From a virus: 64,000 nt of DNA. The translations under genes were made by a program, and so were the position numbers. The DNA is taken from UHGV virus genome UHGV-1363143, one strand, 5' to 3'. Below, piece after piece: positions 2,505-27,530 of the stretch. Numbering within the stretch: position 1 is the first letter of the stretch; every line of letters begins with the position of its first letter. The notes beneath the pieces are model-generated. The model had not been told where the DNA came from, made no database searches, and worked only from the letters and a program-made list of their open reading frames with translations.

Positions 2505-2530
2505 TGGATAAAAACAAAGGAGGAACAAAG

Positions 2531-9103: not shown

Positions 9104-9104
9104 C

Positions 9105-10712: not shown

Positions 10713-11546
10713 ATGAAAATAACCAATGAAAAAAACTATAATCAGCCTAATGGCCAAATAGATTATATGTCATTAATAAATGATTTACAAGATGAATATG
10801 GAACTATTTACTGGAACACATTAGATGGTGAAATTTTTATTTATAGACCTCTTGGTAGATTGGAGTACAGACAATTAATTAATGCAGATATTACTGATAT
10901 AGAAAAAGAAGATACAGTTTGTAAGGCGTGCTTATTGCACCCTACAGACTTTGACTTTGATAACTGTCCAGCTGGCATACCAAAGCAATTACATGATTTA
11001 ATACTTAAGAATTCTTTTTTAGATTCTTTAGAATCAAAGAAACTCATAGTTGCTTACCATAGGTCTGAGATGGCAGAATTTGATAATCAGATAACTTGTA
11101 TAATTAATGAGGCATTTCCTAATATTGATATTGAAGAAATAGAAAGTTGGGATATGGCCAAGACTGCAAAATACCTTTCTAGAGCAGAATGGAAACTTAA
11201 TGTATTAAGGCAAATACCTATAGATTATGATACATCTAATAAAATGATGGAAGATGAATGGGTAATGCAGCATTCTAAAGGTAATGAAGAAATAAATGAA
11301 GTGGATAATATAGAACCAGAAGATAAAACACGACCTCAACATGAATTCAAAGTAGAAACATTAGAAGAAAGACAAGCTAGAATGAAGAAAGAAGGACCTA
11401 GACGAAAAACTCCTGAAGAACTAGCAGAGTTAAAACGCAGGTTCCCAGAAATCAAATGGGATTATGAAGTAGATCCTAATGAAAACATTGATAATATGAA
11501 AGATTCGTTAGATGTTACATCAGTAGCATTAAGACCAGGTTTCTAA
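10713..11546 (+). CDS. Hypothetical protein (277 aa), possibly the second tail-assembly chaperone.
   Basis: It sits directly upstream of the tape-measure gene. It has a charged C-terminus. Confidence 0.35.
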   Translation: MKITNEKNYNQPNGQIDYMSLINDLQDEYGTIYWNTLDGEIFIYRPLGRLEYRQLINADITDIEKEDTVCKACLLHPTDFDFDNCPAGIPKQLHDLILKNSFLDSLESKKLIVAYHRSEMAEFDNQITCIINEAFPNIDIEEIESWDMAKTAKYLSRAEWKLNVLRQIPIDYDTSNKMMEDEWVMQHSKGNEEINEVDNIEPEDKTRPQHEFKVETLEERQARMKKEGPRRKTPEELAELKRRFPEIKWDYEVDPNENIDNMKDSLDVTSVALRPGF

Positions 11547-11573: not shown

Positions 11574-14500
11574 ATGAGCAGATTAAATGACGAAGATCAA
11601 CACTCCTTTGGTAAGGCTACGGCTGTTCTGACTGGTATGGTTGGGGCAGCCGCTTTTCATAGATTAGGGGGAGCTAAGGCCATTGCGAAGGGAGTGCCTA
11701 AATTAACTAGGTTTGCTAGTAAGCTAATGGACGATGTAGCTGAAATGAAACTTAAGGATTATGATGCTGAAGGAATCAGTAGACTTTATAAGAGTCATAT
11801 AGCTGATGATAATAGTACTTGGAAGTCCTTAAAAAATCTATCAGATGAAAAGATAAAGCTTGGAGTTACTGGACAAAAACCTGTTGCAGTTATATTAAAT
11901 ATGTTGGAGATACAAGCCAATAGCAGAGATACTATGAGAAAGGTATTTAATGCAAATTATGCTGATGAAGTAGTAGGTAAACTTGATAAGAAATATAAAA
12001 TCATAGATGATGAATTTAAGGACAAACTTGATGATCTTACAAGACATGTAATCGAAAAGGATGATTTAACATTATTCACAGATAAAGATGGTGTAGTAAC
12101 AAGAAACAGTGATTTAATAAAAGATTTTATTGATCCAGATGAATTTCATTTAGGTGAACAAGAAGATGAATTCTTTAAGGATTTAATAGGAGCAATAGAA
12201 AATAAAGAAAATGCTTTTAAAGAATATGTAGAGAACCATAAAGATGAGGATGGAACTTTAGATCTTGTAAACAACATAAAAGAACAATTAACAGGTAAAA
12301 GTTTTGCAGAGGCTTTTGGAGTCTCTGGAGATGAATCTATAATAGACAATACTATTAAACAAAGTAGAGGACTTACTTTTAGAGATTATGTAGATAACCT
12401 AGATAAATTCGATGACCAAATTATGAATCTTGGTGGCGATAATTATATTAGTTTAAAAGATGAGATTAAAAAGTTTGTTGAAGAGAATGAAGAAATCAAA
12501 GATGTACTTATTGACGCTAAAAACCTTAAGATAGATAAATCAGGAAATATAATTGATTTTCAAGAAGTAGATGAATTAAGAAAAGGTTTTTTAGAAAAAC
12601 TTGCTGGAACACTTCCAGGTAAACTAGCAAAGGTCACAGACTTTCTTAGTGTTGAAGAAGCTGGAGCAATTAACTTTTTCCAAAAAGGTAAAGCTAATCC
12701 TCTTGCTAACAATGATGGTACAAATAAAGGCAAGGATAATATAATTCAAATTTTAAATAAGTATTATAAGATAGATAAAAATAATAATTTATCTCATATG
12801 AGTGAATTAGATGATATGTACTCAAGATCTAACAAACACGGTACTGTTCCTCGTATGTTGGGTAAAATGTTTGGTACTGAATCAGAATATGAGGCTATTA
12901 ATAAAATAGCTAAAAAACTTGATATAGGAACAACTACAGAAAGAACAATATTAGATGATTTATCTAAAGAGGGCGGAATAGTAGGTAAATATGCAAGAAG
13001 TGTAACTGGAGTAGAAAGATATAACGTTATTGATAAAATGCTAGATGCTAGTCTTGCAGAAAGTGATGCTATAGCATATAGAAAAAATCTTAAGAATGTA
13101 AATCAAATCTTCTCTCATATTGCTAAAGCTCCTAACATGAAAACACTAGCTAAGATGGAGAATGTAGTTACTAATGATATGAGTAAAGATATACTTCAAG
13201 CGTTAATGACTAATGACCAGGAAGAGATGGTTTCTACACTATCCAAGTATACTAAACAGCTTAGGAATAAGGATTTGAAATCTCTAATAAAAACTGGTGC
13301 CTCTAATAGAGAGAATGCAGCTCGAATGCTATCAATAAAGAGCGATAGAATTACGGATGCTAAAAATATTATGAAATACAAAGACATGATTAAAAGGGAA
13401 GCTTTTAAAGAAGTTTTAATATCTGAGACAATTGATGAAGTTTCAGGAAGTGTTAATCATAATAGAATGTTAATTAAGTTAAGACAAGCTGGAATATCAG
13501 GAAGTTCATATGAGAATGCCAAGAATTTAGGACACTGGGCAACTCTTCAAATGAAAGGAAAACTTTTTAATAATGATGCTAAAGAGAAAGGACTTGAAGC
13601 GATCAAGGAAGCTAACAATGATGTTCTTGAACTTTTAACATCTATTAGAAAAAAAGATACTATTCCAGTAAATGCTGAGTACGTAAAAGACTTTAGAAGT
13701 ACTGTAGACAAAATAAGGGATAATTACAGCGAACTTACTACTAGAACAACAGAAAGAAATATCAAAGCTAAGAAGATTAGAGCACAAGCTACAAATGATA
13801 TGATGATTATGCGTAAAGCATATACCCCTAGTAGTTATGTAAAAGACATGATTAAAGATATGAATGATATAACAAAAATGAAAGCCAATACTAAAAAGTT
13901 TGGTATGCAATTTATTGCTGGCAAAGATAATCCTGAATTTGTTACATCATACACTATGATACCATATTTCTTTAGTCAAAGACTTACAGAACCATTTGCA
14001 AATTACGGCCTATCATTCTCAAGCAAGAATATGAAGAGTACTCCTGATATGTGGAAGGCGATAATGATGAAAAGAGTTCTTCCAGCAGCAGCAGGTATCA
14101 CCGCATTTAATTACTTAAATTATGAAGCTAAGAACTTAACTGGTACTAGCATAACAGGTGCAATGGCTCAGGGGATAGCAAATGTAGATCTTGGCCTAAG
14201 AAAGATAGCTGACATTACTGGAGCTGGAAAATTACTTGAAGCAGAAAGAAGATTAAATCCTATTTCTCAATACTGGCTAGGAGAAGATTATCAAAATTCT
14301 GCTGAAAGAAAAGATTATTACGAAAATGGATATGATGAAGTCCGTAAAGGAAGATGGTGGGCATTCGGTTCTGCTTCTGAATTTAGAGGTAGTAAGATTG
14401 CATATTATCAACCTAATTTCGTTAAGAGAGCTAATAGTGATTGGAAAGATATCGGAATATACGGAAGTTCAAAAGAGAAATGGAAACATTCTTGGATACC

Positions 14501-17500
14501 AACTCCTAGACATCCATTTGCTCCAATAAGAAGAGCATTAGATCCATACTGGCTTGAAAGAAAGAACTATAATGATAGACCTTATCTTGAAACTGCGCCT
14601 TTATTCTCTACTGGTACTCCTTGGGGAGCTGTATTGAATCCTACAGTAGGTCAAATAGTAAAACCTATTAGAAAGATGCATAGGGATGAAACTAGAAGAG
14701 GCTTAGTTGATCCTCGTACTTTAATCCGGGAAAGAAATGAAAGATTAAAAGCTAAAGCTCAGGATAAGCAACATGGCAACCTTATTCAAATATCAAAAGA
14801 TGGAATAAGTAATGTATCGTATACCCCTTCTGCACTTGCGGATCCTGACAAAGCAATGATAACTTTAAGAGCTGGAAATGGAAAAATACAAAGTGTAGAT
14901 TATAATGGTCTTGATTATACAGAAGGTATTGGCCACATATCAGAAGGTGGAATACCAGTAGATAACCCTGCGGGAAACAATGGGGCATTTTATGTTGGAA
15001 GAAATGCGAGTGCTGAACCTAAAACGGGGTTGATAGAGGCTTTTGAAACAACAGCATTAGGCTCATTTATAAGCAATGGTGTAAGAAAGTTTATAAGTCC
15101 TGTAGAGACTCTAAGGGTAACTAATGAAGGAATTAAGGGTAAAGCAGCAGCTACAGACGGAACTGTTATACAACAAGCTAACCTTGCTAAAATGCCATTC
15201 AGACAAGCGACTCAAAGAATGACTACAAAACAAGAAGAGGCTGATTTATTATTAACTACTTCTAAGCACGATTTTATAAATGACACACTATTCTCTGCAA
15301 AACAATTATCAGGTATATATGGATTCCTTGGAGGGCTTATATACTCAGATGATAAAAAGAAGGTAAGACCAGAAAGTGCTGAGAAAATGTCTAGCTTTAA
15401 ACGTAGTTTCTGGGATGCAAATGTCGGAGGTCTTGGTGGCGGTATAATGGAAATCTCTAGAAGATTTTTCCCACATGATGACCATGCATGGACAGATATT
15501 AATCCAATTAGAAATACTATGCCTGAATGGATGCCAACTAGATTCCAAACAGGGGATCCATATACTAAAGTTCCGAAGGGAGAAATGAGACTTCCAGGAA
15601 AGGGATATGAATCTATTCATAAATTAAGATCTGATGAATACGGAAGATATGGTGCTCTTGATAGAATGAGGATATTAGGAGATATAGCTCCGTGGTCAGA
15701 AGAATACAAACTGTGGAGAGATATAGCAAGTAAATCAATTACTGACGAAAAAGGTAAGAGAGAAATACAAGACATAAAGAAGAGAGTTGAAAAACAAAGT
15801 AGATCACATGAATTTTATAATTATAAGTTCCTAGGAAATCCTACAGAGATAAATACTGAAACTATTGAATCAGTAGAAGGAACTAAAATTACCACTACAT
15901 CAGGTAAACAATATAGCATGGCTGGAATTAAGCTTGGTAAAAATACAGATATAAACTCACACTTAGCCGCTGGAATGAAAGTTCAAGTAGAACACTTGAA
16001 GAAGGATAAGGGCATTGATGGTTCTATATCAGCAGCTGTATATGTTAATGGAGAAAATATAAATCAAAAGCTTGTTAATTCAGGTGAAGCAAAAAGTGAT
16101 ACTAGTACAGCTATGGGAGCAAAAGCTTTAACTGGTCAATTTAGTCAATTCTATGGTGCAGCAATGGAAGCTATTGCTCATGCTCCTATTCCATTTGTTC
16201 ATAACAAAGTGATGAAGATAGATACACCATTAGAATCTTATAAAAACGAAAGAGTTTATGGTACTCCATATAGTACATGGGATCATCCTATTAAAGGATT
16301 TATTATGCCTTCATTCCAAAAGGACTGGGCAAGAGGCCCTGTAGGACAAGGTATTGCTCTTGGTGCTTGGGTATTAGCTGAGCAAACTTGGAAGAATTCA
16401 AGTAAAACTTCTGAAGCATTAAAAAGAATAGGAATTAATTTATCAGAAACTGGAGTTAATAGATTAGCAAGTACTATATTTAATGTAGCTAATCCTGGTG
16501 CATTTGCTGGTTCAATGATGGCGGCAATACCTACTGGACTAATGGGTAACAGTGAAGGTATTAAGGGATTATTTAGTTCCGCAATATTTGGAGCAGGAGT
16601 TAAACCAGGTGTTGGTAGAAATGGTGCTAGATTAGGTGCAACAGCTATGATAGCTGGATATGGATTAACAAGATCTGATAAGCCTATTGAATCGACAGCT
16701 ATATTCACTGTAGCTGGTATGGCATTATCTAAACAGTTAAATCATAAAGCATTTAATACTAAACAAGGTGCTATAGCTGGTGCTACTACTGGATTATTAA
16801 TATCTGCAATTAGGAATCCTAGATTTAATAAAGATAAAATGTTTGGAAAATACACACCTGAATCAACTAAAAAGAGATGGGATATAGATGAGTATTATGA
16901 CAGACTTGAATATATAAAATATAAGGGCCTATACGAAAAAGCTGCAAGAAAAGCACGTATATGGGAAGGCACAAATATTAAAAAGATTATCAATGCAAAT
17001 GAATACCAAAGAGGAATAAATAAAAAGAAAATTGAAAAATTAAACAATAGGCTAGACAAAGTAAGTAATAGTAAACTAGAGGACAACAGAAAGGCTGAGA
17101 TAATCGAAAAGATTAATCAGCAAAAATATCGACTTAGCACATCTGAACAGACATTTAGGGCTGGGAAATATACTAAAGCCGCTATTGCATACAAACAAGC
17201 GGCGGAAAGTACTATCTATGGCTTGAAAGAAGATGCTACTTCACAACAAGTAATGAGAGCAATTCCAAAAGGAGATAAAGATTTCTTCATGGAATTTGCT
17301 AAAGAAAAGAATAAGAAGAAGCAAGATGAAATACTAAAATATGTATCACCTTATCAAAGAAGAGCATTACAGATAGCTTGGGGACGAAAGAAGATTGATA
17401 AAGTAGAAGATAATGATGATTACTTTAAAGGTCACTTTATGCCAGGAGTGTTCTGGGCAGGATGGAGTCCACAAGTTGATATGGAACATGTTAAGATGAA

Positions 17501-17810
17501 GACTATCGAAAATGAAGGAATGCTTTTAAGTGATTTTGGAATATATGAATCTCAAAGCAATGAGCCATCGGCAATAATGGCTCCAACAGTTGGAAGATTT
17601 GATAGTGCAAATACTAGCGGTCTTGGATTACAAGCTAGACTTCAAGGTGCATTAAATGGAGCAGGATTAATGGGAGTTAAAGTTAGTGTAAGTCCAACAT
17701 CGGCTAACGGGATAGAAGTAATGGCGAACATAACAAACGCTGCAAAAATTACAGAATATAAAGTTAGGGAAGGCATAAATAAAGTAGTCGGAACAAGATT
17801 GTTTTATTAA
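11574..17810 (+). CDS. Tail tape-measure-like protein (2078 aa).
   Basis: Its position after the tube and chaperone genes supports the call. It has a long alpha-helical charged N-terminal two-thirds. A cluster of Gly/Ala-rich hydrophobic segments lies at nt 16330..16815 (GIALGAWVLAEQ, AFAGSMMAAIPTGLMG, AIFGAGVKPGVG, MIAGYGL, AIFTVAGMAL, GAIAGATTGLLISAI), typical of tape-measure proteins. Confidence 0.55.
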   Translation: MSRLNDEDQHSFGKATAVLTGMVGAAAFHRLGGAKAIAKGVPKLTRFASKLMDDVAEMKLKDYDAEGISRLYKSHIADDNSTWKSLKNLSDEKIKLGVTGQKPVAVILNMLEIQANSRDTMRKVFNANYADEVVGKLDKKYKIIDDEFKDKLDDLTRHVIEKDDLTLFTDKDGVVTRNSDLIKDFIDPDEFHLGEQEDEFFKDLIGAIENKENAFKEYVENHKDEDGTLDLVNNIKEQLTGKSFAEAFGVSGDESIIDNTIKQSRGLTFRDYVDNLDKFDDQIMNLGGDNYISLKDEIKKFVEENEEIKDVLIDAKNLKIDKSGNIIDFQEVDELRKGFLEKLAGTLPGKLAKVTDFLSVEEAGAINFFQKGKANPLANNDGTNKGKDNIIQILNKYYKIDKNNNLSHMSELDDMYSRSNKHGTVPRMLGKMFGTESEYEAINKIAKKLDIGTTTERTILDDLSKEGGIVGKYARSVTGVERYNVIDKMLDASLAESDAIAYRKNLKNVNQIFSHIAKAPNMKTLAKMENVVTNDMSKDILQALMTNDQEEMVSTLSKYTKQLRNKDLKSLIKTGASNRENAARMLSIKSDRITDAKNIMKYKDMIKREAFKEVLISETIDEVSGSVNHNRMLIKLRQAGISGSSYENAKNLGHWATLQMKGKLFNNDAKEKGLEAIKEANNDVLELLTSIRKKDTIPVNAEYVKDFRSTVDKIRDNYSELTTRTTERNIKAKKIRAQATNDMMIMRKAYTPSSYVKDMIKDMNDITKMKANTKKFGMQFIAGKDNPEFVTSYTMIPYFFSQRLTEPFANYGLSFSSKNMKSTPDMWKAIMMKRVLPAAAGITAFNYLNYEAKNLTGTSITGAMAQGIANVDLGLRKIADITGAGKLLEAERRLNPISQYWLGEDYQNSAERKDYYENGYDEVRKGRWWAFGSASEFRGSKIAYYQPNFVKRANSDWKDIGIYGSSKEKWKHSWIPTPRHPFAPIRRALDPYWLERKNYNDRPYLETAPLFSTGTPWGAVLNPTVGQIVKPIRKMHRDETRRGLVDPRTLIRERNERLKAKAQDKQHGNLIQISKDGISNVSYTPSALADPDKAMITLRAGNGKIQSVDYNGLDYTEGIGHISEGGIPVDNPAGNNGAFYVGRNASAEPKTGLIEAFETTALGSFISNGVRKFISPVETLRVTNEGIKGKAAATDGTVIQQANLAKMPFRQATQRMTTKQEEADLLLTTSKHDFINDTLFSAKQLSGIYGFLGGLIYSDDKKKVRPESAEKMSSFKRSFWDANVGGLGGGIMEISRRFFPHDDHAWTDINPIRNTMPEWMPTRFQTGDPYTKVPKGEMRLPGKGYESIHKLRSDEYGRYGALDRMRILGDIAPWSEEYKLWRDIASKSITDEKGKREIQDIKKRVEKQSRSHEFYNYKFLGNPTEINTETIESVEGTKITTTSGKQYSMAGIKLGKNTDINSHLAAGMKVQVEHLKKDKGIDGSISAAVYVNGENINQKLVNSGEAKSDTSTAMGAKALTGQFSQFYGAAMEAIAHAPIPFVHNKVMKIDTPLESYKNERVYGTPYSTWDHPIKGFIMPSFQKDWARGPVGQGIALGAWVLAEQTWKNSSKTSEALKRIGINLSETGVNRLASTIFNVANPGAFAGSMMAAIPTGLMGNSEGIKGLFSSAIFGAGVKPGVGRNGARLGATAMIAGYGLTRSDKPIESTAIFTVAGMALSKQLNHKAFNTKQGAIAGATTGLLISAIRNPRFNKDKMFGKYTPESTKKRWDIDEYYDRLEYIKYKGLYEKAARKARIWEGTNIKKIINANEYQRGINKKKIEKLNNRLDKVSNSKLEDNRKAEIIEKINQQKYRLSTSEQTFRAGKYTKAAIAYKQAAESTIYGLKEDATSQQVMRAIPKGDKDFFMEFAKEKNKKKQDEILKYVSPYQRRALQIAWGRKKIDKVEDNDDYFKGHFMPGVFWAGWSPQVDMEHVKMKTIENEGMLLSDFGIYESQSNEPSAIMAPTVGRFDSANTSGLGLQARLQGALNGAGLMGVKVSVSPTSANGIEVMANITNAAKITEYKVREGINKVVGTRLFY

Positions 17811-18314: not shown

Positions 18315-18554
18315 ATGATTAGTTATGAAAACATAATGTTAGAAAAAGAACAAGAATTTGAACAACTTACTGCTCATGCAAAAGAAAAAGAAAATATTCA
18401 CAATGAAGAGATGGCTCAAATTCAAGAAGAATTATTAAGAATTCAAGGCGAGTATAGAATGCTTGCTAAATTAAAGGAGCAATCTGAAGCAGCAGAAACT
18501 GAAGCAGTAGAAAATACTGATACAGAAGATGCGAAAATTATAGAAGCAGAATAA
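18315..18554 (+). CDS. Small acidic coiled-coil protein (79 aa).
   Basis: It has an RBS (TAGGAGTG) and is E/Q/K-rich. A terminator follows. Confidence 0.35.
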   Translation: MISYENIMLEKEQEFEQLTAHAKEKENIHNEEMAQIQEELLRIQGEYRMLAKLKEQSEAAETEAVENTDTEDAKIIEAE

Positions 18555-18569
18555 TATTAAAAACTTTCA

Positions 18570-18597
18570 AGACTTAGCTTATGCTAGGTCTTTTTTC
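18570..18597 (+). terminator. Rho-independent terminator.
   Basis: The stem is AGACTTAGC / GCTAGGTCT with one G-U pair, followed by TTTTTTC. Confidence 0.55.
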
Positions 18598-18647: not shown

Positions 18648-21600
18648 GTGAGATCTCGTATTAATGTATTTGAGCACAATAAAAAAATTGAAAATAGAAT
18701 AAAATCAAGAGAAGCCATAGTCAAAGAAGAGTTCGGTGGCAAAAGCGGAGAGGCTTTAGTTGAAGAAGTTAATAAGAGAATGGCTATGGCATATATAATG
18801 GACAATGATTTTAAAAAGAAATATATAGAGTTCGGAAAAGACTCTGTTATATTAGGATCAAAATATGTAGATGACGCTGTTAATAAATATGCTCCTATAA
18901 ATGGCATTAAACAAACTTATGATGATATAAGACCTATGTTTAATTTTGTTAACAATATAAGCAATCATCTTAAATCAAAACAGACAGGTAATGAGCTTAT
19001 ACTTAATGCTATAGAATTAAACAATGGAATGAACTACAGTAAGATTTCCACTAAAGCAAATATGTCAGTAACTTCATTAAATAAGGCATATGATAATTTT
19101 AAAAAATCTGAAGAGTTCTTTGTATTTGACACTGAAACATTATCAGGTATGGGCAAAACAGGATATAACGAACTAGATAGATTACAAGAAATAGCATTCC
19201 GTAAGTTTAAAAAGGTTGATGGAAAGCTAGTAGAAGATGAAGCTTCAAGGGTGGAAACACTTATAGGAATAACTCAAAAGCAATACGATGAATATATGGA
19301 TATCTTCGTAAATAACTTTAATGAAAATGGATGGCAAGGAAATCAAAAGTACGAAGTAATCGCAGGAAGATTTGCAAAGCTTGGACATAAAGATACTGTT
19401 ATTAAAAATGCTGGTAAAGGATTAGCTATAACAGAAAGTTTTGCTAGTGATGCTAGTGAGAACTTAATGGATGTAAGCAATATTAAACGAGGGCTTGAAA
19501 GAGCTCTAGAAATAGGAAAAAGACAAGATGCTGAAAGACTATCTAATGGCTTAATGGTATGGGAAGATCAGTTATTAAGAAGTGTAAAAATATTTAATGA
19601 AAACTTTGTAGCTGGATTTAATAGTACAAACTTTGACTTTGAAAAGATGAATCAATCTATTGGTACTGTATGGAACAGTATGAATTCAACTCAAAAAGCA
19701 GAGTATAGCAAAATATTAAATCTTAAAAACGGAACAGTTCCTGTAATCAATCCTATTGAAGGAAATTATTTAGACTTTAGAGATGTTGTTAGAACTGCTG
19801 CTGAATCAATAGGTAAAACAGGCATCTATGGTAATGATAATGAAAAACTTAAAACAATTAAAGGTATAGGGAAGACATTATTACAACAAGAATCTCTTGG
19901 TGAAGTATTTGCTAAAGATGCAATGTTCACAGCAGCTCATACAGCAGGTGCCGACGTTACAACGTTAGCTCACCTTATGGGAGGCAAGGAATTAAACGGA
20001 GCTTCTTTATTTGATGAATTAATGACTACAATAAATAAGAATGCTTCAGCCTTAACAGGAAAAGTAGATTACAATTCTGTATTAATGGCCACTCAAGGAG
20101 AGTTTTTCAATGACTTTACTAGAAAGGGTGCTCTTAACTTTACAACAGATAGATCTAGTGGTGCGATAAGGACGTTCAATGGAATGTCACTAGATGCAAA
20201 TGGAGATGTTAGAGATTTAGGTAAATTCGGTAAAGCGACAGGATTAAAGAAAAATGTAGCTTATAAGATTGGATTTATGGGCGAAATGGATATGTCTGAA
20301 GACTGGATTAAAAAGATGTCAGGTATACACCAAGACTACGCACAAGGAAAGTTGTGGGTTGCGAAATTTAATCCATTAATAGATAAAACAATAGCTGGAG
20401 ATAATTCTATTTTAGAAGATCCTACTACATATTTCTTTACTTCTAAAGAAGCAATGGAGGGATTTGTATCAAGCCATTTTGCACATGTAGGTAATATAGG
20501 CACTGATGGTAAAATAGAAGATTTAGCTGATCCTGCAGCTAGAGCTGAGGTTCAAAAGCTATTTGGAGTTCATACAATCAAAGATGGAAAAGTTAGTGAA
20601 GCCGCAACACAAACAGCTAGTGAATTAGTATCCAATGGAACTATACAAGCAATGAATGATCCAGCTGCTAGAATGATAAGAGAAAATGAATACACAAAAG
20701 CTATAAAGTTTCAGAGAATGCAAGATTACCTAAAAAAGAATGGTGCTACAACTATTGATGAACAAAAGAAGATGTTATCTTTAGCAACTGCAGAGAATGT
20801 TGCTGGAGGAAAAACATTAAAGATTAAACATGATGTTTTATCAATATTAGGATTCCAAGATAAAGAGGTTAATAAGCAAGTCCTATATTCAAGTACTTTA
20901 AATAATACTATTAATAGTTATGGATATATGGCTTCAAAAAGAAATGTTATAGATTCTCTTGTTGAAGCTGTTAAGGAATATGGAAATATAGGCTCAGAAC
21001 AGCAACAGTTTATATATGATTCATTAATGAGAGGGTTAAGAGAAGATGCAGCTAATGCTATAGCTTCAGGAGATTTAGAGAAAGAAGCACTAATCAATGG
21101 TTCAAGTGAACTAAAGGTATATGCAAAGGACCTAGATTATTTTGAATTTGATATGCCAGAGGGCTACTTTAAAAACACTAATGCAAAAGCTATGCCTGGA
21201 GAAATAGATAATGTACTAAGGGTTAATCTTAAGTCAGAAAAAGAATATTCTCTAGTCAATGATTTATTAAGAAGACGTAGAGGAAATGATGATAGGCTTA
21301 AATCTCCTAATGCAAGACAAGCATATGGAATGCAAGAACTTAGAAATTTTGCTAATACAGTAAACTCATTAGAAGAGTATAAAGGAATATTTGATGATAT
21401 CTTATATGGCAAGCCAGTTAATGAACTTAAGAATTTAGCTAATTTAAAGAAGTATGAAAAGAGTTTATTAAAAGATGAATTGTATTCTTCATTTGATAAT
21501 GTAGTTAATAATATAGTTAACAATAATGAAGAAGTTATTGAATCAAGAGCTTCTTTAGAACAACTTAGAAAAAGAAGGATAGAACTTCAAAACTTTATAA

Positions 21601-24600
21601 ATGAAAATAACGGAAAAAGAAATTCATTAAGACCTGAACTTGAAGTTCTAAGTAATGAATTTAAAAATACTATATTACCAGATGATCAGTGGCAATCATT
21701 ACTTCCAGATGATAAGAGAATAATTAAAGAAAAGCAAAAAGACATAATGCTTAAACAGAAGGAATTACTTTCAACATTTGATAATAGTGATTTATTTACT
21801 GAACTTAGTGAAATTGAAAGTAACATGGAAGAACAATACAACCATCTATTTAATGTATTGGATATCTCAAGATCAAATGCAAAAACTTCTTTAAAAGAAA
21901 TGTTTTCAACAAAAATTAATAATAAAAATAAAGAGATTGATGAAGTATTCAATAAGTTAAATGAAGTTATCTCTACTGTTCCAATTGAAGCTGATATAAG
22001 TGTTGATGCTATGTCAGAAAAGCTTATTCAAGCAATGAAAAACTTTAGAGAAAATAATCCTTCTTCAGGTTTTTCAAAAGACAGAGTAATACAAAATGTC
22101 TTAGATAGTGATGAATTACTATCAACACTTGATGATGATTTTGTAAAGAAGTCTATTGAAAATACTAAGAGCAATTTGCCTAATCTAAAGCTTATTGATG
22201 TAAACAATAAAAATGAAGTTAAGTCATATGCAGAAGAGATCGTAGATAGCATATTAATGCCTACAGTAAAGGACTCGGATGGAAATTTACTTAAGAATAT
22301 AGATGATATAGCAACATTCGCTCAAAAAACATATGGCTACAATGAAACTACAACTAAGCTATTTAAATATAATCTTCAAATGCAAAGAGAAGAACATGTC
22401 AAAGGTATCTCTGATCTTGTAACAGCAGTTGGAAGAAAAAATGGATTTATAACTTATGATAAGTCAACCTCTGAATTGGGAATGAGAATAGGTGGCGAAA
22501 CATATAACCTATGGGGTATGCCTAAGACTAGAATTGAAAATGGTACTTTATTTATTGCGAATGGACAAGGCAATTTTGCTTCAGGATTTAAACTGGATGT
22601 TCAAGATGCAATAGATGGTAAGAGACTTAATCGAGGCAAGGTTGCAATAAAATCTGATTTAGCAGATTCATACAAGGAATTAAGATCCCTTAATTATAGG
22701 TTAGATAGAGCTGCTGCTAGAGGAGATGATTTAGGTAAAACTGTTATTGGTGCAGTTAGCAACGTAGCAAGTAAAGTAAGAGAATTATCTGCTTTAGGTT
22801 CAATGACAACTAAAGATTCATATGCATGGCAAGGAATGGATTTAAGCGAAGGTATTTTGTCAATGCCATACATGTTGGATGAGATTAAATCATATGACGG
22901 TTGGCAAGACGACGATTTTATAAAAATCTTAGAAAGAAATAAGAATAGGATACTTAATGGGAATATAACTTCAGAAGTTCAAGAAGCATATGCTAAAAAT
23001 AAACAAGATGTAGTAAAAATGCTTTTAGGTATTGGTGCAGGAAATGAAAATAAGCAAAGAACTGTTCAAGAGTTTATTGCAGGTAATATAAGCAATTATA
23101 CTAAGGATGGGAAACTAGCTGTAGGTAGAGCAATGGTAGGAGAATATTCTCCAATGGCTATGACAGAATGGGACAATCCATCACGTCCACCAATAAGTTC
23201 TGCTGATGAAATTTTGTTCAACAAAAAGAAATTAGATGATATAATCAATGATCCTACAAAAGGATTGAAAGGTAGAATAGAAACTGGCTCTAGAATAGTT
23301 TCTACTAGACAAGGTGCTGGAAGAAAATTTGATGGAATAGGCGAAGTGGCAACTGGAGTTACATTTAAAAATGCTAATATTTCAGAAAAGAAATTCAAGG
23401 AAATTATAAGTGATAAGTTCGAAGAAGAACTAGAAAAAGTAAATCCTAACTCTAGTAGAGCGGAATGGCTAGAATCACTTAGAAGACAAATGAGCGGACT
23501 TAACTTGACTGAACAAGGTAAGCTTATTGATGGTAGAGTTGCAGATGCTTTATTATCTGAAACAGAAACGCAAAGAATTAATACATTTAAGAATTTTAGT
23601 AGAGACATGAAAAACAATACTAAAATTATGAACGATAGAATAAAAAAGGCAATGCCTACTATAGAGATTGCTCAGTCAGGAGAAATTGTATTCAAGCTTG
23701 GTAAGAAGGATTACGTAAAACGTGGCGACGCATTATTTGCTATAGATGGATATGGAGATGTTCTTGATACTATAGGAGTAAAAGAAGACGCTGGATTATT
23801 TGGGTTTGGATATAATTCTAAGGGAAGTAATCTTGCAGTTGGAGAAGATGAAATATCTAAACTTCTTAACAAGAATAAGAATAGAATACTAAATGCAGAT
23901 GGAACAATAAATCAAGATAAGGCTATGCGATTATTAAATGAATCTTTTGATAGTGGATTCTATGTAAAGAATGCGTTTGTAAAAGGATACAATAAGGGTA
24001 CAATCGAGTATGCTGAAAAAGGTATGTACGATGCATTGGTATCTGGAGCAGGTACTTTAGATAACAGAGTTGATAAGTTACTTGAAGCTGTCGGTATGAA
24101 AGAAGCTAGTGGTAAGGTTTTAAGTGAAGATTTTATAGATTTAATAGCTGAAAAATATTCTGGATTGACCGCAAAACAAAGAAGTGATTTAGGCTTTGCA
24201 GGTGGTTGGAACCAAGTTAAAAATGCTATTAATAAAGAAAAGTTTGCTAAAACTGACTTCATTAGAGAGATAGATGCATTTAAAGATATAGTTGCATTTA
24301 CTAATGACAATGTAATTAAACATGGTAATGCAGGTATCGCAATGAAAGGACTTATTAATAACATTACTGAAAAGTATATGATTGATGATAAGTTATCATT
24401 TGAAGAAGCTTCCAAGAAAACTGTTGATATACTAAACAAGGAAATTATTATAGATAAAAGTACTGGTGAAAAAGGCAAAATATTTAATGGAGTAGATATT
24501 TCTTTTAAAGACGGTAAGATTCATATTGGTGAAATAAAAGATACACTGAATGCAACTATAGACAAATACGCAGTACAAGCTTTAACTGATGAACTAGGGT

Positions 24601-27530
24601 TATACGATAAGAATAGTCCATTTGCTATTCGTGATAAAAATGGAAATGTAGTTGGATACACAACTACTTTAACTACTTCATTTAATGAAGACTTCTCTGG
24701 AACTTCTAGATCATCAATAGAAAAAGATAAAATAAAGAAAAACTTAGATAACAAAAAGGAAAAGTTAAGGGCATTAAATCCTGAAACTGATTCAGTTAGT
24801 TACAATGCTTTAAATGAGGAAATTAAAAACTTAGAGCATTCATATAGGGCTGCTAAGAACTATGATAAAACAATGACAATATCATCAAGAGAAACTGACA
24901 TGATGAGCCTATATGAATATGATGAAAGTAAAATGGCGAAGGTCAGAGAAAAGCTTGGTGGCGATTATAACAAAATATATAAGAGAATGTTAGATGAAGA
25001 TGGTCGTATTAATTCAGAATACACTGGCAGAGCAATACACCAAGGGTTCCTTGATGACATAGAAGACAAGGCATTTGAACAAGCTGTTGAGAATAAAAAA
25101 TATTTTGACAGTGCAAAAAATGCTATAACATACAATAATAGACCAGGACTAGGTACAGACTTCATAAAAGATAATAACTTTGAAGAAGTTAAAATAGGCG
25201 ATTTAGTAATTCCAAATGGACATGACACAAAGTTCCTTGAATCGGATCCAAACAGATCATTTGGAAGAAACTTATTGGTAGACACAGGGCTTTCAGGAAA
25301 TGATAGATATGTAGCAATTTCTGCTAACAACTATTCAATAACTGGAGACGATGTAAATACAGATGAAGTTCAAAAATCTTTAGCCAAATTACAAAGAGCT
25401 AGTAAAACTCTTGAAGATGGAAGAAAGGGAATTAATGGTGCATTAGATAATGGCACTACTGTTAAAGATCTAGAAGCAAGAGTTAGAAATGCAGCTGATG
25501 AATTAAAAGAATCTGTAGTTGGTTCTATGAGAAAAACTCTTGGTGGACTTGATTCAGTTCAACTTGGAGGATATTCATATGAAAAAGCTACTATGGCTAT
25601 GCTGGATCCAGATAGTCTAAAGAAAGCTATGGAAAATGGTAACTTCGATAAGAAAGCCTGGAATGGATATAAAATGTATGGAGTCTCTAAGATTAATGGA
25701 AAGACTCTTGGTGAATGGGCAAGCCAAGGAGTTCACTATGATGCATCATGGCATGGTAAACAATATTTTAAAGACCTAGGATACTTTGATAAAGCTGTAT
25801 GGAAAGATAAGTATAAAATGAAGTCTGTAGACGAAATGATAGAATATCTTAGGGTTAATGGTACAGCAGGAATAGAACTGCGTACACCTACGATTAAAGA
25901 AGGTTCTATGTCTGTTACAAGACAATATCTTGACACAGATTTAAAGGATGGTCAGGCTAAAGCTACAGCCTCTCTTGTTTTTGGAAGAAATCAGGACCAT
26001 GATGGAGATAGTGTTATACAAGCTGAATTAAGACATAAAGACTGGACATTAGCAGACTATGAAATAGGAATGAAAAATAACCCTAATAATGTTCCTGAAG
26101 ATGTAAAAAAATACTATGAAGAATTAAATGCTGCCCAAACATATAGAGCTAGTACAATAAACAATAAGATATATGAAAACGTAGCAGTTCCAACATACAA
26201 TGACGATGTAAAAAATGCATTAAAAAACGCAAATGTTAACAAAGTACTTGCAAGTGAAAAAGTAAACCTTAATGGACGATATATTACTCCATTCTCTCAG
26301 GCTGAAACAGATACAGCATTAAGAAATGATTATCTTAAAAAGTATGGAGAAATAGAAGAGTCATTAATCAGTAAACTAGGAAAAGAGAAATACAAATCTC
26401 TTAATGTTATAGAAAGAGCAAAAGAAATAGATACTCATATTGCTGGTTTAGCTGATGACGTTAAAGATGGATATAGAACTGCAGCTAGATTCGTCGAAAT
26501 TTATGAAAAAGATATGTCAGCAGTAATGTCTAAAGTAGCTGGTAAAGCTTCTATCGGATATATTAATACACCACTAGCCTCATTAAGAAGGGCAGCAGCA
26601 GTAGAAGGATTTTCTGGAGATCAACGTAAGTATATCCAAGCAGCAGCAGATATACTAGAACAAAATATCATATCTAAGAAGCATAGTACAGATTATGCTA
26701 TATCTTTAGCTCAGACTTTTAGATCTAGTCTTAATGATATGTTTGAAGGGAAAATATCTGGTGCTAATAATGTAAATAGGTTGATAAGAGAAAATTATTC
26801 TGGAGCTATGGTAGAAAAGCTTAAAATATTTAATGATATTGACTTTTCAGGAGTAGATGATGAAGAAATCCTAAATAGAATAACTTCAACTATATCAGAT
26901 GTTGGTAGAGCAGCTAGTAATAATAGTAATTTTAGAAACATCATAAAAGCAGAGAACGCTAAAAATTCACTAACAGCAAGCAATATGGAAGATGTATTAT
27001 CAGGAATATCTGAAAGAAGTACAGGACATAACAAATCTCTCGCAAGAGCTAAATACAATGGAGGATCTACATCATCAGTAAATGCTTCAATTGATATGGA
27101 TGGCTTTGAATCTTCGGCAAAGAAAGTCATTTCATCTGCTTCTGAAGTTATAGATGATATGGCTAGAAGTGTAGGCGGTAGTGGATTAGCAAAAGCTGCC
27201 TTAGGTATAGCTGGAGCAATTATGGCTGCAGGTTATATTGGAGGTAATCCAACAATAGCACCTGGAACAGAAGCTCAAGATTTAGATAGTTATGATTCCC
27301 TACAAGACAAGGACTTATCTATACAACAACTCCCTCAGGGAACTGGACAAGGATATGTAATAAACATTAATGCTCAAAGTGCTAGAGGCCAAGATCATGC
27401 AATTAAAGCAATTCAACAAGCTATGCAATCAAGTGTGACTACTGATATTAATATAGCTATGAATGTAAATGATAAGACAAACACTATAAATAGTAGATAT
27501 ATAGACAAACTATTGTCTGGTGCAATATAG
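18648..27530 (+). CDS. Giant virion or ejected-protein candidate (2960 aa). It has an N-terminal DEDDh 3'-5' exonuclease-like domain and a C-terminal multisubunit-RNAP beta-prime-like double-psi beta-barrel catalytic motif. It starts at a GTG with a GAGGTG RBS.
   Basis: The Exo I-like motif is FVFDTETLSG (about nt 19120). The Exo II-like motif is AGFNSTNFDFEKM. The Exo III-like motif is AAHTAGADVTTLAHL (about nt 19930). At about nt 25870..26010, ELRTPTIKEG...LKDGQAKATASLVFGRNQDHDGDSV aligns with E. coli beta-prime NRAPTLHRL...[26 protein letters not shown], including the spacing. Confidence 0.55.
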   Translation: MRSRINVFEHNKKIENRIKSREAIVKEEFGGKSGEALVEEVNKRMAMAYIMDNDFKKKYIEFGKDSVILGSKYVDDAVNKYAPINGIKQTYDDIRPMFNFVNNISNHLKSKQTGNELILNAIELNNGMNYSKISTKANMSVTSLNKAYDNFKKSEEFFVFDTETLSGMGKTGYNELDRLQEIAFRKFKKVDGKLVEDEASRVETLIGITQKQYDEYMDIFVNNFNENGWQGNQKYEVIAGRFAKLGHKDTVIKNAGKGLAITESFASDASENLMDVSNIKRGLERALEIGKRQDAERLSNGLMVWEDQLLRSVKIFNENFVAGFNSTNFDFEKMNQSIGTVWNSMNSTQKAEYSKILNLKNGTVPVINPIEGNYLDFRDVVRTAAESIGKTGIYGNDNEKLKTIKGIGKTLLQQESLGEVFAKDAMFTAAHTAGADVTTLAHLMGGKELNGASLFDELMTTINKNASALTGKVDYNSVLMATQGEFFNDFTRKGALNFTTDRSSGAIRTFNGMSLDANGDVRDLGKFGKATGLKKNVAYKIGFMGEMDMSEDWIKKMSGIHQDYAQGKLWVAKFNPLIDKTIAGDNSILEDPTTYFFTSKEAMEGFVSSHFAHVGNIGTDGKIEDLADPAARAEVQKLFGVHTIKDGKVSEAATQTASELVSNGTIQAMNDPAARMIRENEYTKAIKFQRMQDYLKKNGATTIDEQKKMLSLATAENVAGGKTLKIKHDVLSILGFQDKEVNKQVLYSSTLNNTINSYGYMASKRNVIDSLVEAVKEYGNIGSEQQQFIYDSLMRGLREDAANAIASGDLEKEALINGSSELKVYAKDLDYFEFDMPEGYFKNTNAKAMPGEIDNVLRVNLKSEKEYSLVNDLLRRRRGNDDRLKSPNARQAYGMQELRNFANTVNSLEEYKGIFDDILYGKPVNELKNLANLKKYEKSLLKDELYSSFDNVVNNIVNNNEEVIESRASLEQLRKRRIELQNFINENNGKRNSLRPELEVLSNEFKNTILPDDQWQSLLPDDKRIIKEKQKDIMLKQKELLSTFDNSDLFTELSEIESNMEEQYNHLFNVLDISRSNAKTSLKEMFSTKINNKNKEIDEVFNKLNEVISTVPIEADISVDAMSEKLIQAMKNFRENNPSSGFSKDRVIQNVLDSDELLSTLDDDFVKKSIENTKSNLPNLKLIDVNNKNEVKSYAEEIVDSILMPTVKDSDGNLLKNIDDIATFAQKTYGYNETTTKLFKYNLQMQREEHVKGISDLVTAVGRKNGFITYDKSTSELGMRIGGETYNLWGMPKTRIENGTLFIANGQGNFASGFKLDVQDAIDGKRLNRGKVAIKSDLADSYKELRSLNYRLDRAAARGDDLGKTVIGAVSNVASKVRELSALGSMTTKDSYAWQGMDLSEGILSMPYMLDEIKSYDGWQDDDFIKILERNKNRILNGNITSEVQEAYAKNKQDVVKMLLGIGAGNENKQRTVQEFIAGNISNYTKDGKLAVGRAMVGEYSPMAMTEWDNPSRPPISSADEILFNKKKLDDIINDPTKGLKGRIETGSRIVSTRQGAGRKFDGIGEVATGVTFKNANISEKKFKEIISDKFEEELEKVNPNSSRAEWLESLRRQMSGLNLTEQGKLIDGRVADALLSETETQRINTFKNFSRDMKNNTKIMNDRIKKAMPTIEIAQSGEIVFKLGKKDYVKRGDALFAIDGYGDVLDTIGVKEDAGLFGFGYNSKGSNLAVGEDEISKLLNKNKNRILNADGTINQDKAMRLLNESFDSGFYVKNAFVKGYNKGTIEYAEKGMYDALVSGAGTLDNRVDKLLEAVGMKEASGKVLSEDFIDLIAEKYSGLTAKQRSDLGFAGGWNQVKNAINKEKFAKTDFIREIDAFKDIVAFTNDNVIKHGNAGIAMKGLINNITEKYMIDDKLSFEEASKKTVDILNKEIIIDKSTGEKGKIFNGVDISFKDGKIHIGEIKDTLNATIDKYAVQALTDELGLYDKNSPFAIRDKNGNVVGYTTTLTTSFNEDFSGTSRSSIEKDKIKKNLDNKKEKLRALNPETDSVSYNALNEEIKNLEHSYRAAKNYDKTMTISSRETDMMSLYEYDESKMAKVREKLGGDYNKIYKRMLDEDGRINSEYTGRAIHQGFLDDIEDKAFEQAVENKKYFDSAKNAITYNNRPGLGTDFIKDNNFEEVKIGDLVIPNGHDTKFLESDPNRSFGRNLLVDTGLSGNDRYVAISANNYSITGDDVNTDEVQKSLAKLQRASKTLEDGRKGINGALDNGTTVKDLEARVRNAADELKESVVGSMRKTLGGLDSVQLGGYSYEKATMAMLDPDSLKKAMENGNFDKKAWNGYKMYGVSKINGKTLGEWASQGVHYDASWHGKQYFKDLGYFDKAVWKDKYKMKSVDEMIEYLRVNGTAGIELRTPTIKEGSMSVTRQYLDTDLKDGQAKATASLVFGRNQDHDGDSVIQAELRHKDWTLADYEIGMKNNPNNVPEDVKKYYEELNAAQTYRASTINNKIYENVAVPTYNDDVKNALKNANVNKVLASEKVNLNGRYITPFSQAETDTALRNDYLKKYGEIEESLISKLGKEKYKSLNVIERAKEIDTHIAGLADDVKDGYRTAARFVEIYEKDMSAVMSKVAGKASIGYINTPLASLRRAAAVEGFSGDQRKYIQAAADILEQNIISKKHSTDYAISLAQTFRSSLNDMFEGKISGANNVNRLIRENYSGAMVEKLKIFNDIDFSGVDDEEILNRITSTISDVGRAASNNSNFRNIIKAENAKNSLTASNMEDVLSGISERSTGHNKSLARAKYNGGSTSSVNASIDMDGFESSAKKVISSASEVIDDMARSVGGSGLAKAALGIAGAIMAAGYIGGNPTIAPGTEAQDLDSYDSLQDKDLSIQQLPQGTGQGYVININAQSARGQDHAIKAIQQAMQSSVTTDINIAMNVNDKTNTINSRYIDKLLSGAI
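19100..20000 (+). other. DEDDh (DnaQ/RNase T-like) exonuclease motif set inside the 2960-aa protein.
   Basis: It has the D-x-E motif, a second Asp motif and H-x4-D with T-A/L context. The order and spacing are consistent with the family. Confidence 0.55.
25870..26040 (+). other. Beta-prime-like DPBB NADFDGD-type metal-binding motif (NQDHDGD) with an upstream R-x-P-T element.
   Basis: The motif is read directly from the translation. It has 5/7 identity to NADFDGD plus conserved flanking elements at the correct distance. Confidence 0.6.

What the first reader, a model, noticed from the sequence alone, without database searches (positions are those of the whole stretch)
19100..20000. DEDDh 3'-5' exonuclease motif set fused to the N-terminus of the same giant RNAP-like protein
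There are three ordered motifs: FVFDTETLSG (Exo I, D-x-E), AGFNSTNFDFEKM (Exo II, Asp) and AAHTAGADVTTLAHL (Exo III, H-x4-D). They are spaced about 90 and about 180 aa apart. This is the DnaQ/RNase T/oligoribonuclease family signature. An exonuclease covalently linked to a putative ejected polymerase is unusual. It could serve proofreading, RNA processing, degradation of host nucleic acid, or anti-defence by degrading signalling oligonucleotides.
Basis: partly seen in the sequence, partly recalled or inferred. Interest (0 to 1): 0.75.

Follow-up and report, generated by a model that had tools for sequence, protein, structure and literature searches.

The report
Exonuclease domain on phage tape-measure-slot giant
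The first ~470 residues of a 2,960-residue tail protein of a jumbo phage contain an intact DnaQ-type 3'-5' exonuclease, so this phage lineage probably delivers a nuclease, and possibly an RNA polymerase, through its tail at the start of infection.

Summary
The three motifs are real and lie at the stated coordinates. Only the quoted spacing is wrong: it is about 165 and 105 aa, not 90 and 180.

The host protein occupies the tape-measure slot of a Bacillus phage 0305phi8-36-like jumbo myovirus. It is flanked by clear orthologues of gp145 and of the gp147 hub/lysin.

A beta'-type R-x-P...D-x-D-G-D signature near the C-terminus is invariant. Homology to RNA polymerase is only sub-threshold.

Cultured relatives exist: Bacillus phages KLEB27-3 gp034 and WH1 gp095. 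The slot protein of Moorella phage MTATph1 carries a Pfam RNase_T domain without the polymerase motif.

The biological role is inferred. The most likely role is DNA 3'-end processing at genome entry.

This is a new architectural variant of a known enzyme.

The parts
18648..27530 (+). Giant ORF of 2960 aa, in the tape-measure-protein slot of the tail module
   Evidence: ORF list and translation. It is flanked by orthologues of 0305phi8-36 gp145 and gp147 (blastp; annotation). Synteny is kept in a 23%-identical homologue.
19068..20045 (+). DEDDh 3'-5' exonuclease domain (aa ~141-466)
19119..19148 (+). Exo I motif FVFDTETLSG; catalytic D161 (19128-19130) and E163 (19134-19136)
   Evidence: D161 and E163 are invariant 45/45.
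19263..19547 (+). Insertion of about 95 aa between beta3 and the canonical helix (aa ~206-300). It has its own conserved residues: G207, V237, R241, G246, G282, Q293.
   Evidence: AF2 secondary structure and conservation. It explains the long Exo I to Exo II spacing.
19611..19649 (+). Exo II motif AGFNSTNFDFEKM; N325 (19620-19622) and catalytic D330 (19635-19637)
   Evidence: D330 is 45/45 and N325 is 43/45.
19773..19775 (+). D376 in the beta5 'LD' motif, semi-conserved in DnaQ-like exonucleases
   Evidence: 44/45.
19932..19976 (+). Exo III motif AAHTAGADVTTLAHL; H431 (19938-19940) and D436 (19953-19955). This is the 'h' subtype.
   Evidence: Both residues are 45/45.
21405..21947 (+). K/E-rich helical insertion (aa ~920-1100) that is absent from 82-84%-identical homologues
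   Evidence: This is tape-measure-like length variation.
25881..26009 (+). RNAP beta'-type signature: R2412-x-P2414-x5-S2420, then 29 aa, then D2450-H-D-G-D2454
   Evidence: R, P and the three Asp are invariant in 27 sequences. The best PDB profile hit is phiKZ RNAP beta' at E = 0.25, in register. PF00623 is the only Pfam hit on the KLEB27-3 homologue, at E = 0.015.
27186..27242 (+). Single strongly hydrophobic segment LAKAALGIAGAIMAAGYIG (aa 2847-2865)
   Evidence: Hydropathy scan. Conserved across the family.
27315..27527 (+). Most conserved part of the family: the C-terminal module (GYVININAQS...)
   Evidence: It matches the extreme C-termini of 0305phi8-36 gp146 (E = 4e-5), MTATph1 CDS0031 (3e-6), KLEB27-3 gp034 (5e-7) and WH1 gp095 (7e-9).
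11574..17810 (+). Upstream giant protein (2078 aa), orthologue of 0305phi8-36 gp145, which is a virion protein by mass spectrometry
   Evidence: blastp E = 4e-74; annotation.
27672..36359 (+). Downstream giant protein (2895 aa), orthologue of the gp147 baseplate hub with cell-wall hydrolase domains
   Evidence: phrog_20474 at E = 1e-170; blastp E = 1e-65; PMC2147016.
10341..11546 (+). Two tail-chaperonin genes, orthologues of gp143 and gp144
   Evidence: blastp E = 3e-9 and 2e-23.

Best explanation
What it is (shown). Residues ~141-466 of the 2960-aa product of window 18648-27530 form a catalytically intact DnaQ-like DEDDh 3'-5' exonuclease. It carries a lineage-specific insertion of about 95 aa.

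By analogy with every characterised DEDDh enzyme, D161, E163, D330 and D436 would hold two divalent metal ions. H431 would activate the water that removes nucleotides one at a time from a free 3'-OH end. That step rests on established family chemistry and was not tested here.

Where it sits (shown by synteny). The domain is a constant N-terminal module of a giant protein that fills the tape-measure-protein slot of 0305phi8-36-like jumbo myoviruses. That slot lies between the tail tube, chaperonins and gp145 on one side and the hub/lysin on the other. The protein ends in one hydrophobic helix plus a conserved C-terminal module shared with other proteins in the same slot.

How it is likely to work (inferred).
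- The protein is assembled in or at the tail lumen, with its C-terminus at the hub. It is expelled at infection, so the N-terminal exonuclease leaves last, next to the leading end of the genome.
- My best guess (about 0.35) is that it resects 3' ends of DNA at the entry site, most plausibly the ends of the incoming phage genome.
- Resection would expose single strands, either for annealing of terminal repeats or as a template for the RNAP-like module that this family also carries.

Approximate probabilities:
- Active DEDDh exonuclease: about 0.9.
- Virion or tail-delivered protein: about 0.7.
- DNA rather than RNA as substrate: about 0.6.
For: - Catalytic pentad invariant 45/45.
- AF2 core pLDDT 80-95, pTM 0.73.
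- The family profile hits TREX1 homologue 9mrc_A at E = 2.3e-5 with all three motifs in register, then ExoI and RNase T.
- An exhaustive HMMER search of 1.84 billion representatives finds the domain only in proteins of 2500-3130 aa or in fragments, and at the N-terminus wherever the protein is complete.
- Gene-by-gene orthology with the 0305phi8-36 tail module places the protein in the gp146 slot. gp146 is annotated 'hypothetical tape measure protein' and is a virion protein by mass spectrometry (PMC2147016).
- The C-terminal module matches gp146, MTATph1 CDS0031, KLEB27-3 gp034 and WH1 gp095.
- KLEB27-3 gp034 and WH1 gp095 are annotated as (virion) structural proteins and keep the pentad.
- The MTATph1 slot protein has Pfam RNase_T at 24.2 bits, above the 24.0 cut-off.
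- Precedent: P23-45 has a virion RNAP fused to its tape-measure protein.
Against: - Neither Pfam nor PHROGs hits the query itself. Foldseek found nothing significant.
- There is no direct evidence that this protein is in virions. gp146 shows no significant full-length homology to it, and the TMP assignment for gp146 itself rests mainly on tail length.
- A folded exonuclease of about 35 kDa may not fit a tail-tube lumen.
- The substrate and biological role are entirely inferred.
Confidence: 0.6

Rival explanations
1. The exonuclease attacks host (or competitor) DNA at nicks and ends right after delivery. This would serve host shut-off or nucleotide salvage, as T4 DexA or host ExoI-type DNases do.
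Against: A few tethered molecules per virion are a poor way to degrade a chromosome. The domain remains part of a 2960-aa protein whose C-terminal end looks anchored to the membrane or hub.
Confidence: 0.18
2. The exonuclease serves the RNAP-like module of the same protein. It would trim or proofread nascent RNA 3' ends, rescue backtracked complexes, or process early transcripts.
Against: The MTATph1 slot protein has a Pfam-level RNase_T domain but no D-x-D-G-D motif. 0305phi8-36 gp146 also lacks that motif. The nuclease therefore recurs without the polymerase motif. Two-barrel RNAPs cleave RNA in their own active site. The two modules lie about 2000 residues apart.
Confidence: 0.12
3. It is an anti-defence enzyme that destroys nucleotide second messengers or short oligonucleotides made by host immune systems.
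Against: DEDDh chemistry needs a free 3'-OH, which cyclic oligonucleotides lack (established family mechanism). Known phage anti-CBASS and anti-Pycsar enzymes have other folds (my own knowledge). No defence-related context is present in the window, which is purely a tail module.
Confidence: 0.07
4. The domain is a degenerate, non-catalytic scaffold, or the motif match is a coincidence.
For: No Pfam hit on the query. Foldseek found nothing significant.
Against: All five catalytic residues are invariant in 45/45 sequences that are otherwise about 30% identical. The fold and the in-register profile hits agree.
Confidence: 0.02

Closest known systems
DnaQ-like DEDDh 3'-5' exonucleases (E. coli Pol III epsilon, PolC exo domain, Exonuclease I/SbcB, TREX1 and its homologue Plex9.1, RNase T)
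   Different: About 95 aa are inserted between beta3 and the first core helix. There is no Pfam-level match for the query. No stand-alone form was found. The domain is always the N-terminus of a tail-module protein of 2.5-3.1 thousand aa.
Thermus phage P23-45 gp96, a tape-measure protein fused to a virion two-barrel RNA polymerase (Nat Commun 2024, PMC10770324)
   Same: A giant tape-measure-slot protein that carries an enzyme used at the very start of infection. A beta'-type D-x-D-G-D motif lies in the same polypeptide as the tape-measure function.
   Different: P23-45 is a siphovirus, its RNAP lies at the N-terminus, and no exonuclease is reported. Here the host is a contractile-tailed jumbo phage, the RNAP-like motif is C-terminal and unproven, and a DEDDh nuclease sits at the N-terminus. 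No sequence homology was detected.
Bacillus phage 0305phi8-36 gp146 ('hypothetical tape measure protein', virion protein by mass spectrometry)
   Same: The same genomic slot, flanked by orthologous genes. Similar size. The C-terminal module is weakly homologous (E = 4e-5). Hardies et al. likewise found only the last ~60 residues conserved among slot homologues.
   Different: No significant homology over the rest of the protein and no D-x-D-G-D motif. DEDDh-like motifs (DIETTG at 1223, GQNVADAD at ~1440, HLARAD at 1685) lie mid-protein and are supported at motif level only.
Moorella phage MTATph1 CDS0027/CDS0031 (tape-measure-slot gene split by an IS21 element)
   Same: The same slot. A compact DEDDh domain reaches the Pfam RNase_T gathering score and matches the family exonuclease HMM (E = 6.5e-8) with the motifs in order. 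The C-terminal module matches (E = 3e-6).
   Different: The exonuclease lies at aa ~850-1080 rather than at the N-terminus. The large insertion is absent. There is no RNAP-like motif.
Virion RNA polymerases of crAss-like phages (phi14:2 gp66) and N4-like phages
   Same: Giant proteins packaged in the virion and ejected, proposed to start early transcription. gp66 is a single-chain two-barrel enzyme with a D-x-D-x-D site.
   Different: Those are capsid-packaged proteins of podoviruses and have no reported exonuclease domain. No detectable sequence or fold match was found here.

Membership tests
DEDDh (DnaQ-like) 3'-5' exonuclease superfamily | Exo I motif with two acidic residues (D-x-E) | tested here: met
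   D161 and E163 in FVFDTETLSG, invariant 45/45.
DEDDh (DnaQ-like) 3'-5' exonuclease superfamily | Exo II motif with a conserved Asp (N/H-x4-5-D) | tested here: met
   N325 and D330 in GFNSTNFD. D330 is 45/45 and N325 is 43/45, with His in the other two.
DEDDh (DnaQ-like) 3'-5' exonuclease superfamily | Exo III motif H-x4-D, which defines the 'h' subtype rather than 'y' | tested here: met
   H431 and D436 in AAHTAGAD, both 45/45.
DEDDh (DnaQ-like) 3'-5' exonuclease superfamily | RNase H-like alpha/beta fold of DnaQ type | tested here: met
DEDDh (DnaQ-like) 3'-5' exonuclease superfamily | Statistically significant sequence-profile match to family members | tested here: met
   The family profile matches PDB 9mrc_A (TREX1 homologue) at E = 2.3e-5, with the three motifs in register. 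Pfam RNase_T is below threshold on the query and on 22 of 23 members. It is reached by the MTATph1 slot protein.
DEDDh (DnaQ-like) 3'-5' exonuclease superfamily | The five catalytic side chains converge on a two-metal site | not testable with these tools
DEDDh (DnaQ-like) 3'-5' exonuclease superfamily | Metal-dependent 3'-5' exonuclease activity | not testable with these tools
   Requires biochemistry.
Two-barrel (multisubunit-type) RNA polymerases | beta'-type double-psi beta-barrel with the metal-binding D-x-D-x-D loop, preceded by R-x-P...S | tested here: inconclusive
   The motif R2412-x-P-x5-S...D2450-x-D-G-D2454 is invariant in 27 sequences. The best of 177,635 PDB sequences is phiKZ RNAP beta' (7ogp_A) in register, but at E = 0.25. 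PF00623 is the sole Pfam hit on homologue KLEB27-3 gp034, at E = 0.015 and below the cut-off. AF2 pLDDT is below 50 over the motif.
Two-barrel (multisubunit-type) RNA polymerases | A second (beta-like) double-psi beta-barrel with conserved lysines | tested here: inconclusive
Phage tail tape-measure proteins | Gene located between tail tube/assembly chaperones and the baseplate hub | tested here: met
   The order is tube, chaperonins, gp145-like, this gene, hub/lysin, baseplate.
Phage tail tape-measure proteins | Protein length proportional to tail length; extended helical protein in the tail lumen | not testable with these tools
   No virion images exist for this phage. Supportive observations are a 180-220-aa helical indel between close relatives and long helices in aa ~2480-2760 of model 2. 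However, globular domains occupy much of the protein.

The most novel reading that the evidence does not exclude
The tape-measure-slot protein of this jumbo-phage lineage is a tail-delivered 'infection starter' that joins two enzymes in one chain. The N-terminal DEDDh exonuclease leaves the tail last, next to the leading genome end. It resects the 3' strand of the incoming DNA. The resection creates the single-stranded template or promoter on which the C-terminal two-barrel RNA polymerase module of the same protein begins pre-early transcription. It could also expose terminal repeats for circularisation. This would be the first exonuclease-primed virion transcription system, and the second known tape-measure-fused RNAP.
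Probability: 0.18. Interest if true: 0.85.

Novelty: new variant of a known kind. Interest (0 to 1): 0.68.

Why it matters
Tape-measure proteins are usually seen as passive rulers and channel formers. Here a nuclease with an intact active site is kept in the tape-measure slot across a very deep phage lineage. It sits at the N-terminus in this family and mid-protein in Moorella phage MTATph1, while almost everything else in the protein diverges beyond recognition. That pattern argues that an enzymatic step on nucleic-acid 3' ends is part of genome delivery or the first minutes of infection in these jumbo phages.

In this family the same chain also carries an invariant RNA-polymerase-type metal-binding motif. 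This would extend the recently discovered tape-measure/RNAP fusion of P23-45 to contractile-tailed phages of Firmicutes.

Two cultured Bacillus phages (KLEB27-3 and WH1) encode family members, so the idea can be tested directly. The family is unannotated in Pfam and PHROGs and is labelled 'hypothetical' or 'structural protein' in databases.

Tried and rejected
Searches that found nothing or nothing useful:
- Pfam, PHROGs and PDB sequence searches with the query alone gave nothing relevant.
- Foldseek of the exonuclease model against the PDB gave only weak hits to RNase H-like folds.
- A per-member Pfam scan of 23 exonuclease domains gave isolated sub-threshold hits: RNase_H_2, DNA_pol_B_exo1, Rv2179c-like and RNase_T.
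- hhalign of the family profile against single sequences was not significant: E. coli epsilon aligned only at Exo III (E = 0.13) and phiKZ gp55 scored probability 0.25.
- A full-length family profile against the PDB found nothing.
- The search for homologous proteins with the RNAP-motif alignment returned nothing, not even family members, so it was uninformative.
- tblastn of the N-terminal, RNAP-like and C-terminal regions against 50,697 phage records found no match. The cultured relatives were found only with local family HMMs on syntenic loci.
With the single protein it found one near-identical IMG/VR contig.
- The exact-sequence contig look-up for P0003 failed.
- A per-member Pfam scan of the RNAP-motif region gave no RNAP hits.

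Ideas considered and dropped:
- gp146 of 0305phi8-36 as a family member. It shows no significant full-length homology and no PDB or Pfam hit for its motif region. Only its C-terminal module and its motifs resemble the family.
- An SNase domain in the neighbouring 2895-aa protein. The motif is present but there is no Pfam support.
- The earlier impression of a crAss-like phage. It was rejected once tail-sheath, tube and baseplate genes were found.
Full report
**1. Observation**

The window has about 31% G+C, and all large genes lie on the + strand. The ORF at 18648-27530 encodes 2960 aa. It starts at a GTG preceded by GAGGTG, and the resulting N-terminus (M/V-RSRIN..NKK) is conserved in homologues.

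- FVFDTETLSG at aa 158-167 (window 19119-19148).
- AGFNSTNFDFEKM at aa 322-334 (19611-19649).
- AAHTAGADVTTLAHL at aa 429-443 (19932-19976).

The quoted spacing is wrong. It is 164 and 107 aa start to start, not about 90 and about 180. The Exo I acidic residues are D161 and E163.

**2. Is it more than chance?**

Word-indexed searches found 17 full-length homologues down to 23% identity. An exhaustive HMMER search of 1.84 billion representatives with the N-terminal profile found 41 proteins. All are 2500-3130 aa long or are fragments. No stand-alone exonuclease was reached.

In an alignment of 45 representatives, D161, E163, D330, H431 and D436 are invariant (45/45). N325 is 43/45, T164 is 42/45, G167 is 44/45 and D376 is 44/45. 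In a 23-sequence alignment with 30% mean column identity, only eight columns are invariant, and five of them are the DEDDh residues. This is strong purifying selection on a catalytic site.

**3. Fold and family**

Pfam, PHROGs and PDB sequence searches with the query alone found nothing relevant.

An AlphaFold2 model of aa 101-560, built from 15 sequences, has pTM 0.73 and pLDDT 80-95 over aa ~141-466. Foldseek gave only weak hits to RNase H-like folds.

- Then Pop2/Caf1, T7 DNA polymerase exo, PARN, ExoX, CRN-4, ISG20, Cas2-DEDDh, a TREX1 homologue, REXO2 and Cap18.

A profile of 23 diverse exonuclease domains searched against all PDB sequences gave the TREX1 homologue Plex9.1 (9mrc_A) at E = 2.3e-5. 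Three aligned stretches place Exo I, Exo II and Exo III in register. Exonuclease I (0.03), RNase T (0.04), TREX1/2 and family-B polymerase exonuclease domains follow.

The long Exo I to Exo II spacing comes from an insertion of about 95 aa (aa ~206-300; helices plus a beta-hairpin). The insertion has its own conserved residues.

**4. What the host protein is**

PHROG hits identify a contractile-tail module: sheath at 2504-5539, then baseplate wedge proteins and collagen-repeat fibres downstream. The sheath's closest cultured relatives are Bacillus phage 0305phi8-36, Moorella phage MTATph1 and Bacillus phages WH1, Edson and KLEB27-3.

The annotated 0305phi8-36 tail module has the following order:
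- sheath, tube and tube paralogue;
- gp142;
- two chaperonins;
- gp145 (1930 aa, virion protein);
- gp146 (2537 aa, 'hypothetical tape measure protein', virion protein by mass spectrometry);
- gp147 (hub with lysin domains);
- gpV-like and gpJ-like proteins.

Local blastp shows orthology for every neighbour:

| Window gene | 0305phi8-36 counterpart | E-value |
|---|---|---|
| 5604-6266 | gp140 (tail tube) | 3e-50 |
| 10341-10697 and 10713-11546 | gp143 and gp144 (chaperonins) | 3e-9 and 2e-23 |
| 11574-17810 (2078 aa) | gp145 | 4e-74 |
| 27672-36359 (2895 aa) | gp147 (hub/lysin) | 1e-65 |

The 2960-aa protein has no BLAST match to gp146 but fills exactly its slot. The same gene order is kept around the 23%-identical homologue P0018.

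[quoted passage not shown] They found only the last ~60 residues conserved among slot homologues (PMC2147016). Consistent with that:
- The most conserved part of this family is the C-terminal ~130 aa, a single hydrophobic helix plus a GYVININA... module.
- A profile of it matches the extreme C-terminus of gp146 (E = 4e-5), MTATph1 CDS0031 (3e-6), KLEB27-3 gp034 (5e-7) and WH1 gp095 (7e-9).
- Close relatives differ by a K/E-rich helical indel of 180-220 aa, as tape measures often do.

**5. The nuclease recurs in this slot**

- Bacillus phage vB_BauM_KLEB27-3 gp034 (2434 aa, 'structural protein') is a true family member. Local HMM scores are exonuclease E = 3e-11, RNAP-like region E = 8e-12 and C-terminus E = 5e-7. 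Its pentad is preserved (YDTEI, GYNVHNFD, AHFGLSD).
- Bacillus phage vB_BceM_WH1 gp095 (2515 aa, 'virion structural protein') is also a family member, with the pentad preserved (FDIEN, GQNINTYD, THMALQD).
- In Moorella phage MTATph1 the slot gene is split by an IS21 element. Its first part, CDS0027, carries a compact DEDDh domain at aa ~850-1080. That domain matches the family HMM (E = 6.5e-8, motifs in order) and reaches the Pfam RNase_T gathering score (24.2 against 24.0 bits).
- 0305phi8-36 gp146 has DIETTG, GQNVADAD and HLARAD in order mid-protein. Only motif-level support was obtained.

Neither MTATph1 nor gp146 has a D-x-D-G-D motif.

**6. Is the host protein RNAP-like?**

R2412-x-P-x5-S2420, followed 29 aa later by D2450-H-D-G-D2454, is invariant across 27 divergent sequences. 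It has the pattern and spacing of the beta' catalytic barrel, R-x-P-x-L-H-x-x-S...N-A-D-F-D-G-D (the comparison pattern is from my own knowledge).

The profile's best hit among 177,635 PDB sequences is the phiKZ RNAP beta' subunit (7ogp_A), aligned in register, but at E = 0.25. The only Pfam hit on KLEB27-3 gp034 is PF00623 (RNA_pol_Rpb1_2), exactly on this region, at E = 0.015 and below the cut-off.

I rate 'contains a two-barrel-RNAP-type catalytic module' at about 0.65-0.7. The published survey of viral two-barrel RNAPs does not list these phages.

**7. Mechanism**

*Shown.* There is an intact DEDDh exonuclease fold and site. It is obligately fused at the N-terminus of the protein in the tape-measure slot. 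The nuclease is conserved in that slot across the lineage.

*From established knowledge.* DEDDh enzymes remove nucleotides from a free 3'-OH by two-metal catalysis, with His as the general base. In phages studied so far, tape-measure C-termini sit at the hub or tail tip, and the protein is expelled ahead of the DNA.

*Inferred.*
- The N-terminal nuclease exits last, next to the leading genome end, and acts on 3' ends at the entry site.
- The nearest relatives are DNases, so DNA is the more likely substrate (about 0.6).
- The nuclease occurs in slot proteins that lack the RNAP motif. A role independent of RNA synthesis is therefore favoured over RNA proofreading. Candidates are resection of phage genome ends (for terminal-repeat annealing or single-strand exposure) and attack on host DNA.
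- Degradation of cyclic signalling nucleotides is unlikely because they lack a 3'-OH.

**8. Novelty and verdict**

No Pfam or PHROG family covers the protein. Database names are 'hypothetical' or 'structural protein'. Literature searches found no report of an exonuclease domain in a tape-measure or ejection protein.

The nearest precedent is the P23-45 fusion of a tape-measure protein with an RNAP.

The enzyme class is well known. The architecture and its conservation in the tape-measure slot are new. Cultured representatives make the idea testable.

Noticed in passing
L009:13004-20308 (Bacillus phage vB_BauM_KLEB27-3 gp034) and L010:30019-37566 (Bacillus phage vB_BceM_WH1 gp095): Two cultured Bacillus jumbo phages encode distant members of the same giant-protein family: N-terminal DEDDh pentad, R-x-P...D-x-D-G-D motif and C-terminal module. 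tblastn missed them. Only local family HMMs on syntenic loci found them. Depositors label both as (virion) structural proteins.
   Followed up: partly
L008:12513-19869 (Moorella phage MTATph1 CDS0027-CDS0031): The tape-measure-slot gene is interrupted by an IS21-type element (transposase CDS0028 plus IstB-like CDS0029). The upstream fragment has a Pfam-level RNase_T domain at aa ~850-1080. The downstream fragment keeps the conserved C-terminal module.
   Followed up: partly
L004:16624-24237 (Bacillus phage 0305phi8-36 gp146): The mass-spectrometry-verified 'hypothetical tape measure protein' has DEDDh-like motifs in order mid-protein: DIETTG at aa 1223, GQNVADAD at ~1440 and HLARAD at 1685. 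It has no Pfam or PDB hit and only a weak match to the family exonuclease HMM.
   Followed up: partly
window 28086-28124: The 2895-aa hub/lysin protein has 'FKIRTIGINAPEV' near its N-terminus (aa 139-151). This resembles the staphylococcal-nuclease R-x-x-G-I-D-A-P-E motif. No Pfam hit supports it.
   Followed up: partly
window 21405-21947: A K/E-rich, Gly/Pro-poor helical stretch (aa ~920-1100) is absent from homologues P0004-P0007, which are 82-84% identical and 2740-2756 aa long. Similar inserts occur in P0020, P0021 and P0025. This looks like tape-measure-style length variation.
   Followed up: no
window 5604-6266, 6362-9103, 9093-10268: PHROG phrog_9206 labels these 'major head protein'. 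They are orthologues of 0305phi8-36 gp140, gp141 and gp142, whose record notes say tail tube and tube paralogue. The PHROG label is probably a propagated misannotation.
   Followed up: yes
window 18569-18592: A terminator-like hairpin (10-bp stem, then a T-run) lies about 55 nt upstream of the giant gene's GTG start, after a small 79-aa acidic coiled-coil ORF at 18315-18554. One such site was found against 0.2 expected.
   Followed up: no
window 25881-26927: Beyond the D-x-D-G-D motif, two further nearly invariant motifs follow: S-K-x-x-G-K-x-x-x-G-x-x-N-x-P at aa ~2628-2642 and E-Q/E-x-x-I-S-x-K-H/K at aa ~2670-2679. Their function is unknown. They may belong to the putative polymerase module.
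   Followed up: no
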